The position numbers and the translations under genes are program-made. The notes below the pieces were generated by a model that saw nothing but the letters and a program-made list of their open reading frames with translations, had not been told where the DNA came from and searched no databases. Positions 9,316 to 20,448 of a stretch of 64,000 nucleotides of DNA are shown here, piece after piece (position 1 is the stretch's first letter; every line of letters begins with the position of its first letter). Location: NCBI RefSeq assembly GCF_009914755.1, contig NC_060934.1, one strand, 5' to 3'. Source of the stretch: the human T2T-CHM13v2.0 reference genome, Homo sapiens.

Positions 9316-9449
9316 CATTTATGACATTAACAGAGAACAGGACTATGTCAAGAATTCTGAGGGTATACTTGGTGAAAATGAATTAAGACCACCCTCCCAG
9401 CTACATTCTCTCTTAGAGAAGATCGAGACAGGGTCCCTATCAGAAAAGA
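9316..9449 (+). CDS. TASOR2: TASOR2 upstream exon A (134 nt); putative coding N-terminal extension IYDINREQDYVKNSEGILGENELRPPSQLHSLLEKIETGSLSEK, or 5'UTR in short isoforms
   Basis: Long polypyrimidine tract + ttttag acceptor; donor AGA|gtgggt; stop-free frame; its last nt (A) completes codon ATT with exon B. Confidence 0.7.
9321..9386 (+). other. Out-of-frame uORF in exon A: MTLTENRTMSRILRVYLVKMN*
   Basis: ATG 9321 to TAA 9384-9386 with three in-frame ATGs; different frame from TASOR2. Confidence 0.5.
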
Positions 9450-12179
9450 GTGGGTATTAAACTAAGTGCTATAAGTCATAACTAATGAATCCAGAATAGA
9501 ATGATTAAAATGTTTTTAGTTTTAATTTAGATCATGTAAAACAAAAAGACTTTAAAAAATTATGATTTCCAGTACCTATATTTTTTAAAATAATCATTAG
9601 TCCAAAAGTAATAGGTGATTAACTTTTCAAATTGCAACATAAAACACGTATGTTCCTCTGTTGTGATTGAATTTAACCTTTCTCACATGCTCTTTATTCA
9701 TCACTTAAGCCCTAAGGGATATACTTAATGCTTTATAGGCAAGCACTTTTCAAGTTTTACCGTCTTAGATTTTTAGGTTTCTTTGTGGTATAGCCCCCTC
9801 TTCATTTTCATAGTCTGGTAATCTTGAATGTTTAAATAAAGCTTGAGCATTGCTCAGCAGTTATGAGACCATTCATTCATAAAGTGTTTGTATTGTTTGG
9901 TGCACTGATTGGACTCTCAAATGAAAGTGTATTTTGTAAAGAAGGGAGAGCGTCAAATTTCTAGATGAAATTTTCATCTGTCTCCTCATTTACTGAACAG
10001 GAAACTTGTGCTTTCTTGAGAGTGTAATTGATGTCATTATGAACCCATGAAAGATTTAAGATTAGCTATGATTTTCCAACAACTTTGTTTTTAACATACC
10101 TCTGCTAACCATAAAATCACTGCTTTTATGCATATACTGCTATATATTGAAGAATACTGGCCTAAAGTGGAAGCATTTTTAACCATAAATAAATAGTTCT
10201 GGAAATAAAAATATATATAAGCAAAGAATAATTTGGTACTTGTTCCTCCTCCTTCGTTTTAAATCATTGGCTTTATTTATAGCTATATAGGGAACAGTAT
10301 TCCCCACACTGGTGTTAATGAAGTGTTCTCTGACCATGTATTTGGGAAACCCTGTATTAGTGTTTTTAATTGCACCATCTCTTCAGTTTTCAGTTCATTA
10401 TTGTGCATTATGATGCTCAAAAATGAGGACGTATGTAACTTAAATCTGTGCCTACCTATTAATGACTTACAGAATTTAGAGAAGTTGATAATCACAGTCT
10501 TCATTTCCAGAGTTACTTTTTAAAATATTTCTTTCAGTGTAAACAATGTGTTTCTCAAATATTGGTCTATAGGTAATTCAATTTTGAAACTTTCTTGCTT
10601 TTTTATAAATATCAAATATAAAGTTCCCAAAATTATTGTTTCTAAAGAAATCTTGATTTGTGTTTAGGCTAGCAGTACAGATTATTTGTAAAATGAATTT
10701 GAAAATGCTCAGGTTTGCCAGTTTGTTTTGAGTAATGCAGCTAATAAAGCTTTAATTTTAACTCTTATAACTGGTGTTTTGCTATTTGCATCTATTCAGA
10801 ATATCCCTATTTTTTAAAGCACTGGTATATTGAAGGAGAAAGTGAAACTGAGCAAAAGTAAAAGTAAAACTTAGAATGAATATATAAATCATGTATATCA
10901 ACTTCAGAATATTCGTAAACATTTCATTCTTTTCTATTTACAGTCTTTCATTTTGATACTTGGAAGTTTATTAAAAGATTTTTTAAATGCCTTGATAATT
11001 AAAGTATTAGGACAATTTAGTCTAAATTTAGCTTACTAAAATGTTTGCTTTCATTTCTGAGATAGTCTAGTTTTTGTATATTGGTTACTTACAAGTTAGT
11101 TTTAATTGAGATTCTTTTTTCTCTTTAATTTTTGAACTTTAATACATTTGGCAGTTTTGGTAAAAGTAGGAAGCCATATTACTGTACTTCATAACATTTA
11201 TACTATATGACCAGTACTTCCAGTGCTATATAAATCATTCTCTTCTCCTTATTGTTTATAAATACTAGGTTTGTAAAACCCCCCAACCTTAATAAAGAGA
11301 ATAGAAAGAGTACAAATAGGAGAGTGAACAGTTAAAATAGTTAGATGCAAGAGTGTCCGTAGGTCATTAGGCTCAGTTCTTGCTAAAGTAGAGACTTGTA
11401 AAATCAAAAGGCACAAAGAGTCAGTCAACATAATTACTGGATCCAGTCGGTAATTCTCAATTAGGAAACGTGCCTCTCATGGGAAGGGTGTATCACAGTC
11501 CCTCAAAGCTATCTCACATGGGTATGGTTTGAAAAAAGCACCTTCAAAAAATTGTAAGTGCAGCTCTGTTGTATAAAATGAAAGAAAGTGATTTTATAAT
11601 ACAACTCACAGGAAGTAAAACTCAATAGACTCTTCTTGACGGGTGAGGAAATCCCAGAGATACAATGATTTCTATTGTGTCTGGTGAGTGGGCAATAGTA
11701 GGTCCCTTAAAAGGAACCTAGCTGACTTAGGGATTTAATGAAAATATGTAAAGAGTAAGTTTATCAAGTGTGGCGTATATATTTAAAAAAAAAAGAATAG
11801 AAACAAAGGATGAAAAAAACTAAAGAATGAGAAATTGCTCTAAAAGTCTAAGCAGCTCCTGACCACCACCTTGACACTACAGTTGTATCCACTTTTGACC
11901 AACTACAGTTATAGTACACAGCTTTCAACCAAAAGACATACCAGGTCTGGCAGGACATATTTTAGCTCCTGTACTAAAAGTAATTCAGCTTCAGTTCTAA
12001 TTTATTTAGGTTATTTTCTTTACATCAGAGGTCTTTTAAATTTTGTTAAGACAGTACAAATATTTCTTAGTTATATAGGAAAGGAATAGGTGATGTTTTG
12101 AGTGATATTCAGTGTGTCTCCCTTAACCCCATCCTTTGGAATCTTAAATAGCTGCGTTATTTTTGTTTGTGTTTTACAG

Positions 12180-12325
12180 TTTTTGAGACAGTGTCCTTGA
12201 GTTCAGACTCTCTCTTCCAGAGGGCAGTTTCACTCCTCCATACTTCTTACTTGGACTCTTCATCTGAGCATGGTTTTCAGTACAGTCAAGTGACTTTGGT
12301 GAAAAATGACATTTTCTTAAATGAG
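12180..12325 (+). CDS. TASOR2: TASOR2 upstream exon B (146 nt), start of pseudo-PARP domain: (I)FETVSLSSDSLFQRAVSLLHTSYLDSSSEHGFQYSQVTLVKNDIFLNE
   Basis: gttttacag acceptor, GAG|gtgagg donor; inside ORF 12167-12364; SYLD...F.Y....LV.N..L.E resembles the TASOR DUF3715 region as I recall it. Confidence 0.8.
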
Positions 12326-12608
12326 GTGAGGTGCTTGGTACACACTATGATGGTTTTGTTTTAGTTTTAAAAGAGGTAAACCCATCATTTTTGGTATATA
12401 AGCCTAGCACTTTTTAGCTATAATTTTTCAGACACAGCAGATCCTTGGAAATAGTCACTTGGAAGGTAATTATTCTAGGGAATAGAAAAATAATGCATTT
12501 ATGTTTAGTCTTAATGGCAGGAAGAATTCAAATGATGCATTTTTAAAAATTTGCAAGACAAAATAGTATGTTTATAGCGTTTGGTTATTCTGTTCTCTCT
12601 TTATACAG

Positions 12609-12704
12609 TACAAAACTTTTTACCAACAAAAAAAAGCAAGTAGTTATACTCAGGAAGAACTTCAAGACACTTACGGGTTTCTTCTGTTTGATACTGAAAA
12701 GCAG
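12609..12704 (+). CDS. TASOR2: TASOR2 upstream exon C (96 nt): YKTFYQQKKASSYTQEELQDTYGFLLFDTEKQ
   Basis: ctctctttatacag acceptor, CAG|gtaagg donor, phase 0/0, stop-free; EEL..Y.FL pattern as in TASOR. Confidence 0.8.
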
Positions 12705-19113: not shown

Positions 19114-19420
19114 TTTTTATTTTTTTGTTTGTTTGTTTTTTGAGACAGAGTCTTGCTCTGTTGCCAGGCTGGAGTGTAGTGACACAATCTCAGCTCACTG
19201 CAACCTCCACCTCCCGGGTTCAAGCAATTTTCCTACCTCAGCCTCCCAAGTGGCTGGGACTACAGGCGCGCGCTACCACACCCAGCTAATTTTTTTGTAT
19301 TTTTAGTAAAGGCAGGGTTTCACCATGTTGGCCAGGATGGTCTTGATCTCTTGATCTCATGATCTGCCCGCCTCGGCCTCCCAAAGTGCTGGGTTACAGT
19401 TGTGAGCCACTGTGCCCAGC
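19114..19420 (-). mobile_element. AluS
   Basis: Antisense dimer; inverted relative to the Alu at 18247. Confidence 0.93.
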
Positions 19421-20039
19421 TGCTTGCTTTTTTCTTTTTTTTTGGAGAGACATGTAACCCTTGATGGAGAGAACTCTGTAATGGAAAATACTGCTGACTG
19501 TTCAGCAACCAGGACCAGCTGCCTGCTAAGAACTTTGCTACATATTTGCTCCTTGTTAACTTGCTGGGCCCTGTCATAATAGAAGTATCTCAGTTTATAA
19601 TTTACAACTGATCATAGTTCAGATTGGAAACTCATCTTTTGAAATTTTAGATTTTGTCCTCTTTTACATTACAGTCACCAAAGAGCCATTCAGTGACCGT
19701 AACATAAAAGATGGTGGGCTATAGTTTTTCTTTTAAGGAAATGGCTCTCTTAAATTTAGGGTGATTCGTATATTTCTTTGATATTGTGATAAAAACTATG
19801 GATATTTGTCTCAGACGCCCAAATGTCCAAAATTTTTGAGTCCATTTTTAAGGGTTCATGGATAATCAAAACTATTTTTGGCCTTAAGATAATTGTTTTT
19901 CTAAGAAGTATAGTTCTTAATACAGTTACTGTTAGGGGACACATATCTGCATCCTTGTTAGACTACTTCTAAATGAATCCTAGAGTAAAGGTTATTGCTA
20001 TTCGAAGGCATCTGATTAGTTTTAATATTTTCATTCTAG

Positions 20040-20177
20040 GGAAAAGTCAAGTTTGTGTCTGAGAATTATACAACTAACTATACTAAGCCATCTTCTGGCT
20101 ATGATTGCCACGTGTCTGAAAATACTAACAAGGTTTCTAACAAGACGAGTCATTTTCGTGCCTTTGAACTGAGTCAG
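20040..20177 (+). CDS. TASOR2: TASOR2 upstream exon F (138 nt): GKVKFVSENYTTNYTKPSSGYDCHVSENTNKVSNKTSHFRAFELSQ
   Basis: tcattctag acceptor, CAG|gtatag donor, phase 0/0; GYDCHVS resembles PARP GYDSV and TASOR ECHVS. Confidence 0.8.
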
Positions 20178-20323
20178 GTATAGTTACCTGTGAATGAGTA
20201 ACACCCAAGATATATTTCTGAGTCTAATGTGTTAAATTTCAGGGCTCGGTGGGGTTGAGAAAAACTTGGTACATATGCAGTTCCATAGTGCTACCCTGAT
20301 AATACTTATTTTTCCTCTTTCAG

Positions 20324-20448
20324 TATTACTTTTACGAACTTTCAGGCAACACCGTTATTGAACGACCCAGACAGATCTGTCCTTATGTAATTGTAGCTTT
20401 TCGATACAGGGAATCTAAAACTATGGCACCACCAGCTCATAAAAGCAT
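20324..20448 (+). CDS. TASOR2: TASOR2 exon G containing canonical ATG (20423): YYFYELSGNTVIERPRQICPYVIVAFRYRESKT-MAPPAHKS(I)
   Basis: ctctttcag acceptor, AT|gtaagt donor; ATG in strong Kozak context (ACTATGG); recognised TASOR2 N-terminus. Confidence 0.95.

What the first reader, a model, noticed from the sequence alone, without database searches (positions are those of the whole stretch)
9316..20422. Hidden 259-codon in-frame extension upstream of the canonical TASOR2 ATG encodes a pseudo-PARP domain
Seen: exons 9316-9449, 12180-12325, 12609-12704, 13923-13995, 17441-17532, 20040-20177 and 20324-20422 have canonical GT-AG sites and matching phases. Spliced, they give 778 nt (1 + 259 codons) with no stop, in frame with ATG 20423. 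The ORF track mostly misses it because the exons are short. The peptide (...TYGFLLFD...CGLRVGSSAVTTLGDPAKGVYISKYSDCL...VVIFNIIKGKVK...GYDCHVS...RAFELSQYYFYE...RPRQICPYVIVAF) aligns by eye with the DUF3715 pseudo-PARP domain of TASOR. Established: TASOR's inactive PARP-like domain is needed for HUSH silencing. The 2430-aa TASOR2 form begins at MAPP, just before the SPOC-like domain, so it lacks this domain. Inference: a long TASOR2 isoform (at least 2689 aa) with the full TASOR architecture is encoded. Newer gene models may already include it.
Basis: partly seen in the sequence, partly recalled or inferred. Interest (0 to 1): 0.9.

Follow-up and report, generated by a model that had tools for sequence, protein, structure and literature searches.

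The report
TASOR2 long-isoform pseudo-PARP exons, already known
Seven short exons upstream of the usual TASOR2 start codon do encode a TASOR-like inactive PARP domain, but this long isoform is already annotated and published; the one useful detail is that the curated long form skips a 46-codon exon from the core of that domain.

Summary
The seven exons have AG/GT borders. Spliced, they give 778 nt with one stop-free frame of 259 codons running into ATG 20423.

The peptide is a TASOR-type pseudo-PARP domain:
- It matches the TASOR crystal structure 6TL1 with phmmer E 1.9e-45.
- It scores 167 bits against Pfam DUF3715.
- An AlphaFold2 model finds 6TL1 first, then PARP12/14/10/13.

It is not hidden or new. 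RefSeq NM_001387328.1 (2645 aa) codes through six of the seven exons. An older human RefSeq model, XP_011517821.1, contains all seven at 100% identity. Papers from 2024-25 describe a minor TASOR2 isoform with an N-terminal pseudo-PARP.

One detail is worth keeping. The curated 2645-aa isoform omits exon 20040-20177. That exon carries the best-scoring third of the domain, predicted as two strands and a helix. It has the same intron borders in TASOR and is present in bird TASOR2. Without it the Pfam match stops at model position 81, and the AF2 model collapses (pLDDT 40 versus 66).

Skipping exon 12180-12325 turns the conserved exon-1 ATG into a 31-codon uORF.

Interest is low: already known.

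The parts
9316..9449 (+). Exon A (134 nt). It codes in NM_001387328.1 and lies N-terminal to the PARP fold. It is reached from upstream first exons that lie outside the window.
   Evidence: AG/GT borders. Coding in RefSeq. 68-100% identical in the 46 of 127 listed orthologue models in which the exon-A peptide was found. The 6TL1 alignment starts only in exon B.
12180..12325 (+). Exon B (146 nt, not a multiple of 3). It sets the frame and encodes the first strand and helix of the domain region. It can be entered in frame from the conserved exon-1 ATG at window -15089.
   Evidence: The 6TL1 alignment begins at P0011 residue 82, inside this exon. Four of the five coding RefSeq mRNAs skip it.
12609..12704 (+). 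Exon C (96 nt, in frame). It carries the Leu that sits at the catalytic-His position (motif FLLFD).
   Evidence: Leu is invariant in 34 of 34 aligned sequences.
13923..13995 (+). Exon D (73 nt). It encodes the equivalent of the TASOR D-loop region.
   Evidence: Pfam PF12509 positions 26-49, 15.4 bits on its own. The TASOR gene has a homologous exon.
17441..17532 (+). Exon E (92 nt). It carries the retained triad Tyr (motif GVYISKY) and a core strand.
   Evidence: Pfam positions 51-81, 28.2 bits. Tyr is invariant in 34 of 34. The TASOR exon ends at the same residue.
20040..20177 (+). Exon F (138 nt, 46 codons, an in-frame cassette). It is the core of the pseudo-PARP: two predicted strands, one helix, the Phe that matches the TASOR Tyr295 plug, and the Gln at the catalytic-Glu position as its last codon. 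The curated 2645-aa isoform skips it.
   Evidence: Best single-exon Pfam score: 41.4 bits, positions 82-128. It aligns to 6TL1 with a single one-residue gap. AF2 elements are E139-142, E159-162 and H173-180. The intron borders are identical to those of the 54-codon TASOR exon. It is present in 3 of 3 bird TASOR2 sequences. It is absent from the NM_001387328.1 CDS. Its donor CAG|GTATAG matches 6 of 9 consensus positions.
20324..20422 (+). The 5' part of exon G (99 nt), upstream of the canonical ATG at 20423. It encodes the last two strands and the 14-residue beta8-beta9 loop.
   Evidence: Loop length is 14 in 34 of 34 sequences. The residue matching TASOR Tyr305 is Leu in 30 and Val in 4.
20423..20448 (+). 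The canonical start codon (MAPP...) of the 2430-aa MANE isoform. In the long isoform it is an internal Met.
   Evidence: RefSeq CDS start. Context AAAACTATGG.

Best explanation
Window 9316-20422 holds the coding exons for the N-terminal pseudo-PARP (DUF3715-type) domain of a minor, long TASOR2 isoform. This domain is the paralogue of the TASOR domain solved as PDB 6TL1.

Whether the protein carries the domain is decided by alternative splicing.

- Shown: the conserved ATG in the main first exon (window -15089) reads in frame into exon B and on through exon G. A second first exon (ATG at -7285) does the same through exon A.
- Shown: the MANE and three other curated mRNAs skip exons A and B. The conserved ATG then opens only a 31-codon uORF, and the annotated protein starts at ATG 20423 without the domain.
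- Shown: exon F is an in-frame 46-codon cassette that carries the core of the fold.
- Inferred: only F-containing transcripts (about 2665 aa from exon 1, or 2691 aa from exon 1b) can make a complete domain. The curated 2645-aa isoform would carry a broken one.
- Shown from alignment: the domain is catalytically dead like TASOR's, with Leu-Tyr-Gln in place of His-Tyr-Glu.
- Inferred: a long TASOR2 would give the HUSH2 complex a TASOR-like module. That module differs at the loop tyrosine (TASOR Tyr305) that TASOR needs for silencing.
For: - Splice sites and open frame.
- RefSeq models: NM_001387328.1, 2645 aa, uses A, B, C, D, E and G but not F. MANE NM_001321783.2 joins exon 1 to C.
- phmmer of P0011 (human XP_011517821.1) against PDB: residues 82-283 match 6tl1_A 12-211 at E 1.9e-45. 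There are two small gaps and about 38% identity by my count of the midline.
- Pfam PF12509: 167.2 bits over positions 2-150 with F. The gibbon F-less form gives 92 bits, with the match ending at position 81. Per exon the scores are D 15.4, E 28.2, F 41.4 and G 13.1 bits.
- AF2 with F: pLDDT 66.1, pTM 0.69. Foldseek then ranks 6tl1 first (E 5.3e-16, TM 0.68-0.75), followed by PARP12, PARP14, PARP10, PARP1 and ZAP. AF2 without F: pLDDT 40.3, pTM 0.39.
- Orthologue models: of 127 examined, 94 carry some of these exons. 64 have D, E, F and G together; 16 have D, E and G without F. Three bird proteins carry the domain including F.
- Conservation: the domain is 81-96% identical between human and 10 chosen mammals. 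The central region is 53-90% identical in the nine of these whose match covers its full length.
- TASOR gene: its exon borders fall at the same residues.
- Start codons: exon-1 ATG into B stays open; skipping B gives a stop after 31 codons.
- Triad and loop counts: using TASOR residue roles from Douse 2020 and the PeerJ 2021 table.
- Literature.
Against: - No transcript or protein evidence could be examined here. [quoted passage not shown]
- The current RefSeq set has no coding transcript that includes exon F. The only human model with F is a withdrawn-style Gnomon XP record, seen here through EukProt.
- The AF2 model is of only moderate confidence: 49 of 225 residues are below pLDDT 50, and four of the five models scored below 50.
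- The with/without-F comparison used different first sequences (human versus gibbon) and different alignment depths (34 versus 24 rows). It is suggestive, not a controlled test.
- Orthologue models are computational. Some may be projected from human transcripts, so the 64 versus 16 count says little about abundance.
- TASOR Tyr305, essential in TASOR, is Leu or Val in all 34 TASOR2 sequences. The function may therefore differ from TASOR's.
Confidence: 0.85

Rival explanations
1. In humans these exons now act essentially as 5'UTR. The long ORF would be an evolutionary leftover that is spliced out of frame in practice. The conserved exon-1 ATG would serve only as a uORF start that tunes translation of the short, domain-less TASOR2.
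For: Four of the five coding RefSeq mRNAs skip exons A and B. The MANE 5'UTR is 698 nt with 7 upstream ATGs. One of them is the conserved start, in a strong context (AGAAGCATGG), which opens a 31-codon uORF. No pseudo-PARP peptides were seen in two cell lines, and the domain-less form is dominant across tissues.
Against: The human ORF is fully intact, with canonical splice sites. The domain is one of the two best-conserved parts of the protein. RefSeq curators accepted a long coding mRNA. The uORF role and a minor long isoform are not mutually exclusive.
Confidence: 0.12
2. The curated 2645-aa isoform (without exon F) is the real and functional long form. On this reading exon F is an optional insert that the fold does not need.
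For: NM_001387328.1 is a curated record. F-less models are predicted in 16 of 127 orthologue entries, spread over primates, bats, carnivores and cetartiodactyls. The skip is in frame (gibbon junction).
Against: Exon F maps onto TASOR residues 247-299 of the solved structure. These cover strands beta6 and beta7 and the plug helix, by my residue count. The Pfam match stops at position 81 without F. AF2 confidence falls from 66.1 to 40.3. The same exon exists in TASOR with identical borders and in birds.
Confidence: 0.08
3. The open frame across seven short exons is a chance alignment of splice-like sites.
For: None beyond the short exon lengths.
Against: There are 0 stops in the coding frame against 25 and 11 in the other two. 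The match to 6TL1 is E 1.9e-45. Conservation reaches birds. RefSeq annotates the exons.
Confidence: 0

Closest known systems
TASOR pseudo-PARP domain (residues 106-332, PDB 6TL1; Douse et al. 2020, passages read)
   Same: Direct sequence match at E 1.9e-45 over about 200 residues, and the top Foldseek hit. The position in the protein is the same, and the exon borders around exons E, F and G are the same. The degenerate triad is the same, Leu-Tyr-Gln. The beta8-beta9 loop has the same 14-residue length.
   Different: The loop tyrosine that TASOR needs (Tyr305) is Leu or Val in all 34 TASOR2 sequences, and the Tyr295 plug is Phe in 32 of 34. The beta6-beta7 loop is 8 residues shorter: the exon has 46 codons against 54 in TASOR. 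In TASOR2 the domain is optional through splicing.
RefSeq NM_001387328.1, the TASOR2 long isoform of 2645 aa (the length quoted in the 2025 Annual Review of Biochemistry article)
   Different: It skips exon F and so lacks 46 residues of the domain core. It starts at an ATG 5 nt before the end of a first exon at window -7401..-7281.
Human model XP_011517821.1 (FAM208B isoform X6, 2635 aa), held here as P0011 from EukProt
   Same: It contains all seven reader exons at 100% identity, in the same order.
   Different: It has 26 further N-terminal residues, encoded at window -538..-461. It also lacks the 81-codon exon 35085-35327 further downstream. This is inferred from the arithmetic 286 + 2349 = 2635, where 2349 aa is the CDS of NM_001321785.2, which skips that exon.
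TEX15 N-terminal DUF3715 domain
   Same: PF12509 hits in the TEX15 gene on chr8. A profile built from TASOR2 N-terminal domains finds the TEX15 exons at 22.1, 15.7 and 14.0 bits.
   Different: It is a more distant relative in a different protein (piRNA pathway).
ZAP/PARP13 and other inactive PARP domains
   Same: PARP fold: Foldseek hits 2x5y and 4x52 at E about 1e-5. The His-Tyr-Glu triad is lost.
   Different: Only 12% identity in the Foldseek alignment. This is similarity of fold, not close family membership.

Membership tests
TASOR-type pseudo-PARP (DUF3715) domain | Significant direct sequence similarity to the solved TASOR domain | tested here: met
   phmmer: P0011 82-283 against 6tl1_A 12-211, E 1.9e-45, 157.5 bits.
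TASOR-type pseudo-PARP (DUF3715) domain | PARP/ART alpha-beta fold | tested here: met
   The AF2 model (pLDDT 66.1, pTM 0.69) gives Foldseek top hits 6tl1 (TM 0.68-0.75) and then PARP12/14/10/1/13. Model confidence is only moderate.
TASOR-type pseudo-PARP (DUF3715) domain | Degenerate catalytic triad (Leu-Tyr-Gln in TASOR instead of His-Tyr-Glu) | tested here: met
   TASOR motifs LMV/YLS/LTQ (PeerJ 2021 table) align to TASOR2 LLF/YIS/LSQ. Leu, Tyr and Gln are each invariant in 34 of 34 sequences.
TASOR-type pseudo-PARP (DUF3715) domain | Extended 14-residue beta8-beta9 loop with the functionally essential Tyr305 | tested here: inconclusive
   Loop length is 14 in 34 of 34 sequences, but the Tyr305 position is Leu (30) or Val (4). 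The role of Tyr305 comes from Douse 2020.
TASOR-type pseudo-PARP (DUF3715) domain | Paralogous gene structure (same intron positions as TASOR) | tested here: met
   The borders K|G and Q|Y around the exon F equivalent, and the start of the exon G equivalent, are the same in TASOR on chr3.
TASOR-type pseudo-PARP (DUF3715) domain | No NAD+ binding or catalysis; required for silencing | not testable with these tools
   This needs biochemistry and cell assays.
Pfam PF12509 (DUF3715) | Score above the gathering cut-off of 28.5 bits | tested here: met
   167.2 bits over positions 2-150. Caution: the same model gives 156.6 bits to an internal TASOR2 stretch that shows no detectable relation to the PARP domain. 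A PF12509 hit alone therefore does not prove a PARP fold.
Expressed human protein isoform | Transcript chain and peptides observed | not testable with these tools
   Sequencing reads were off and supplements were closed. The published pull-downs saw no such peptides.

The most novel reading that the evidence does not exclude
Exon F would be a conserved on/off cassette for the TASOR2 pseudo-PARP fold. On this reading the 'longest' human isoform used in the literature (2645 aa) has a broken domain. A complete-domain isoform, starting from the conserved exon-1 ATG or from exon 1b and including F, would be made in particular tissues such as germline or early embryo. There it would give HUSH2 a TASOR-like, retroelement-directed activity that has never been assayed.
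Probability: 0.3. Interest if true: 0.5.

Novelty: already known. Interest (0 to 1): 0.2.

Why it matters
In TASOR, the pseudo-PARP domain is needed for HUSH to reach LINE-1 elements and deposit H3K9me3 (passages). The dominant TASOR2 form lacks it, and HUSH2 goes to gene promoters instead. Which TASOR2 isoforms carry an intact domain therefore bears on how the two complexes divide their work.

The practical point from this check is narrow. Anyone who clones or searches mass spectra with the curated 2645-aa 'long' isoform is using a domain that lacks 46 core residues.

The literature is also inconsistent about whether TASOR2 has an ART-like domain:
- a 2021 table lists the 2430-aa protein with a DUF3715 domain;
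- a 2023 survey finds no complete ART domain in the AFDB model;
- the 2024-25 papers place it in a minor isoform.

The inconsistency seems to come from the choice of isoform, and from a Pfam model that also matches an unrelated internal stretch.

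Tried and rejected
**Homologue searches.**
- The first search used the large exon 45971-49819 and returned 8 proteins. Only one, pangolin P0008, had the N-terminal domain.
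- The third search used P0008 residues 20-235 and returned only 5 proteins. It did not retrieve TASOR itself, probably because of the word index and the length window. TASOR was therefore compared through PDB 6TL1 and through the chr3 loci instead.

**A second PARP domain in the short form.**
- PF12509 gives its best genome-wide hit to window 39605-40054 (158.8 bits; 156.6 bits), so I considered that the 2430-aa form might hold a second PARP domain. I rejected this.
- BLASTP against the N-terminal domain found only matches with E of 3.7 or higher in the part of the output shown.
- hhalign probability was 0.44%.
- phmmer against PDB gave only a chance hit at E 1.2.
- A profile of the stretch found nothing in the TASOR or TEX15 domain exons; the best hit was E 0.65, on the wrong strand.

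**Checks that were not possible or found nothing.**
- dN/dS and PhyloCSF: no orthologue DNA was available. Protein identity by region was used instead, for 10 chosen orthologues out of the 59 with patterns ABCDEFG or -BCDEFG.
- Rfam on window 9000-21000: 0 families.
- No masked repeat of 100 bases or more overlaps exons A-G, and there is no other annotated feature in window 9000-21000. The script printed none.
- Current Ensembl/GENCODE and UniProt isoform lists could not be consulted.

**Papers.** All were read as passages returned by 'find', not as whole texts.
- PMC11532391 and its preprint.
- PMC7619638, PMC11377751, PMC7955679, PMC10450202, PMC7532188.
- PMC13434735 (nothing on TASOR2 isoforms).
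- 10.64898/2026.05.27.728302.
- PMC10578480 has 0 mentions of TASOR2 or FAM208B.
- PMC13484506 is held only as 1,854 characters, with 0 mentions.
- A second HUSH2 paper, recalled as Danac et al. 2024 (the review cites two such studies, refs 117 and 118), was not found by one search and was not read.
- Supplementary Fig. 1 of PMC11532391 (tissue isoform expression and peptide maps) bears directly on expression and could not be seen. Only its legend in the preprint was read.
- No search was made for a printed statement about exon F itself, so I make no claim that this point is unpublished.

Full report
**1. Observation**

Except for the last, which runs on into the canonical ATG, each is followed by GT. 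Joined, they are 778 nt. The frame that skips one base is open for all 259 codons and continues into ATG 20423. The other two frames carry 25 and 11 stops. The start codon must therefore come from an exon upstream of 9316.

**2. What is annotated**

The RefSeq table for chr10 lists five coding TASOR2 mRNAs.
- MANE Select NM_001321783.2 and three others start in a first exon at window -15366..-15029. They skip exons A and B and are annotated to start translation at 20423, giving 2430 or 2349 aa.
- NM_001387328.1 starts in another first exon (-7401..-7281, ATG at -7285). It codes through A, B, C, D, E and G for a 2645-aa protein.
- It does not contain exon F (20040-20177). F appears only in NM_001321784.2, as 5'UTR.

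So six of the seven exons are already annotated as coding. The extension is not hidden.

**3. What the peptide is**

Exon-by-exon Pfam scans give PF12509 (DUF3715) for four exons:

| Exon | Bits | Model positions |
|---|---|---|
| D | 15.4 | 26-49 |
| E | 28.2 | 51-81 |
| F | 41.4 | 82-128 |
| G | 13.1 | 129-150 |

A word search with human isoform 2 (P0001, residues 1-500) listed 120 of 214 TASOR2 proteins. One of them, P0011, is the human model XP_011517821.1 (FAM208B isoform X6, 2635 aa). It contains all seven reader exons at 100% identity.

P0011 residues 82-283 match the crystal-structure sequence of the TASOR pseudo-PARP (6tl1_A 12-211) at E 1.9e-45. It is the only PDB sequence matched. 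The N-terminal 225-residue stretch alone scores 167.2 bits on PF12509 over positions 2-150.

An AlphaFold2 model, built from that stretch plus 33 orthologues, has mean pLDDT 66.1 and pTM 0.69. Foldseek against the PDB ranks 6tl1 first (E 5.3e-16, TM 0.68-0.75, 37% identity). PARP12, PARP14, PARP1, PARP10, tankyrase and ZAP catalytic domains follow at E about 1e-5 to 1e-6.

**4. Dead-enzyme features**

Douse et al. 2020 (passages) name these TASOR features:
- Leu184 at the histidine position;
- Tyr217 as the one retained active-site residue;
- Tyr295 as a plug;
- a 14-residue beta8-beta9 loop (Tyr303-His316) in which Y305A abolishes function.

The PeerJ 2021 table gives the TASOR triad as L-Y-Q, with motifs LMV/YLS/LTQ. 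In the alignment these motifs sit opposite LLF, YIS and LSQ of TASOR2.

In my 34-sequence alignment:
- Leu, Tyr and Gln are each invariant (34 of 34);
- the plug position is Phe in 32;
- the loop is 14 residues in all 34;
- the Tyr305 position is Leu (30) or Val (4), never Tyr.

The residue mapping is my count along the alignment, not a structural superposition.

**5. Exon F**

- F is 138 nt, in frame, with a weak donor: CAG|GTATAG, 6 of 9 consensus positions.
- It gives the highest single-exon Pfam score.
- In the AF2 model it forms strands 139-142 and 159-162 and helix 173-180 (model residue = P0011 residue minus 71).
- By my count it corresponds to TASOR residues 247-299. This covers beta6, beta7, the disordered beta6-beta7 loop and the plug helix described by Douse.
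- Its last codon is the Gln at the catalytic-Glu position.
- The TASOR gene has a 54-codon exon with the same borders, K|G and Q|Y. Three bird TASOR2 proteins contain the F sequence. F is therefore ancestral, not an insertion.

Without F (gibbon model P0019, junction ...NIIK|YYFYE...):
- the Pfam match ends at model position 81 and scores 92 bits;
- the AF2 model has pLDDT 40.3 and pTM 0.39, with no residue above 70.

That comparison is imperfect. It used a different species as first row and 24 rather than 34 alignment rows.

Among the 127 proteins held:
- 33 show none of the exons;
- 64 have D, E, F and G together;
- 11 have F but lack D and/or E;
- 16 have D, E and G without F;
- 2 have only A, B, C and G;
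- 1 has only G.

F-skipping is thus widely predicted. These are computed models, clustered at 90% identity, and only the top 120 of 214 hits were listed.

**6. How the isoform choice works**

The main first exon keeps an ATG at window -15089 in a strong context (AGAAGCATGG). Its 20 codons are 90% identical to the start of a green-monkey long isoform and match the starts of many other mammalian models.

Spliced to exon B, this ATG reads in frame through G, with or without F. Spliced to exon C, as in MANE, it stops after 31 codons. The MANE 5'UTR is 698 nt with 7 upstream ATGs.

A third upstream exon, at window -538..-461, supplies the first 26 residues of XP_011517821.1.

Inclusion of B (146 nt) therefore sets the frame. 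C (96 nt), D+E (165 nt) and F (138 nt) are in-frame modules.

**7. Constraint**

Between human and 10 chosen mammals, the B-G region is 81-96% identical. This is similar to the C-terminal domains (72-97%) and above the central region. The central region is 53-90% identical in the nine whose match covers its full length; in the shrew isoform only 21% of it aligned. Bird sequences are 47-58% identical to the pangolin query over 90-96% of it. No orthologue DNA was available for dN/dS.

**8. What is in print**

- Jensvold et al. 2024 state that human TASOR2 is predicted to have an N-terminal pseudo-PARP. They say isoforms lacking those exons are expressed in most tissues, and that no peptides from the domain were seen in their pull-downs. 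[quoted passage not shown]
- The 2025 Annual Review article gives TASOR2 as 2,645 aa and says the most common isoform lacks the pseudo-PARP.
- A 2023 PARP-family survey, using the AFDB model, concluded that TASOR2 has no complete ART-like domain.
- A 2021 table lists the 2430-aa protein with a DUF3715 domain and a V-T-E triad.

The core of the finding is therefore already known.

**9. The internal Pfam match**

PF12509's best hit in the whole genome is inside exon 39399-40278 of TASOR2: window 39605-40054, 158.8 bits, positions 1-145, and 156.6 bits. This stretch consists of short conserved motifs within variable, low-complexity sequence.

It shows no relation to the N-terminal domain:
- the BLASTP matches shown were all at E 3.7 or higher;
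- hhalign probability is 0.44%;
- there is no real PDB match;
- its profile finds nothing in the TASOR or TEX15 domain exons, whereas the N-terminal profile finds them at 13-27 bits.

My inference is that the Pfam model was built from a mixed seed. I could not inspect the seed. This matters because a DUF3715 label on the 2430-aa protein does not mean it has a PARP fold.

**10. Verdict**

The residual value is the exon F point and the splicing/uORF logic. Both are inferences from sequence that need transcript and protein data.

Noticed in passing
window 39605-40054 (inside exon 39399-40278): Pfam PF12509 (DUF3715) gives its best genome-wide score here (158.8 and 156.6 bits). The stretch is low-complexity sequence with a few conserved motifs. 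It shows no detectable relation to the N-terminal pseudo-PARP, to the TASOR or TEX15 domain exons, or to any PDB chain. The Pfam model may be built from a mixed seed.
   Followed up: partly
upstream of the window: first exon at window -15366..-15029 (locus L011), ATG at -15089: The MANE first exon keeps the conserved ancestral start codon in a strong context. In the MANE transcript it opens a 31-codon uORF ending in exon C. The MANE 5'UTR is 698 nt with 7 upstream ATGs.
   Followed up: partly
upstream of the window: window -538..-461 (locus L012 5462-5539): A third alternative upstream coding exon supplies the first 26 residues of the older human model XP_011517821.1. It is not in the current RefSeq transcripts.
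   Followed up: partly
window 20178-20183: The exon F donor is GTATAG (6 of 9 consensus positions). With exon A, it has the weakest donor among the seven exons, which fits its being a cassette. No splice-strength model was run.
   Followed up: no
window 12609-13995, as read in proteins P0017, P0021, P0023, P0028, P0033, P0037, P0087, P0090: Eight primate and bat models have the pattern '-----FG'. For P0017, the one checked, tblastn shows an N-terminus that reads exons C and D out of frame before entering F in frame. This looks like a model artefact of the transcript form that skips exon E.
   Followed up: partly
window 13923-13995 and 17441-17532 (residues in motifs QCGL and SDCLHS): The human sequence has Cys where no other row of the 34-sequence alignment does; most have Arg. 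It also has Cys and Ser where most mammals have Tyr and Pro or Ala. Both the window and the older human model share these residues. No test for accelerated change was made.
   Followed up: no
protein P0071 (porcupine, flagged LOW QUALITY) and rodent models P0005, P0062, P0091, P0099, P0111: The porcupine N-terminal domain is far more diverged than in other mammals: 72% identity to human against 80-96% in the other 29 mammal rows, with gaps. Several rodent models show no N-terminal exons at all. Possible lineage-specific decay; not examined.
   Followed up: no
protein P0011 residues 380-452 (encoded downstream of 20423): Pfam PF12480 (GARIL_Rab2_bd, a Rab2B-binding domain of Golgi-associated proteins) matches TASOR2 at 98.5 bits.
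   Followed up: no
human model P0012 (XP_011517822.1) and chimpanzee P0013: These are further predicted in-frame variants that skip D, E and F together (303 nt), removing most of the domain.
   Followed up: no
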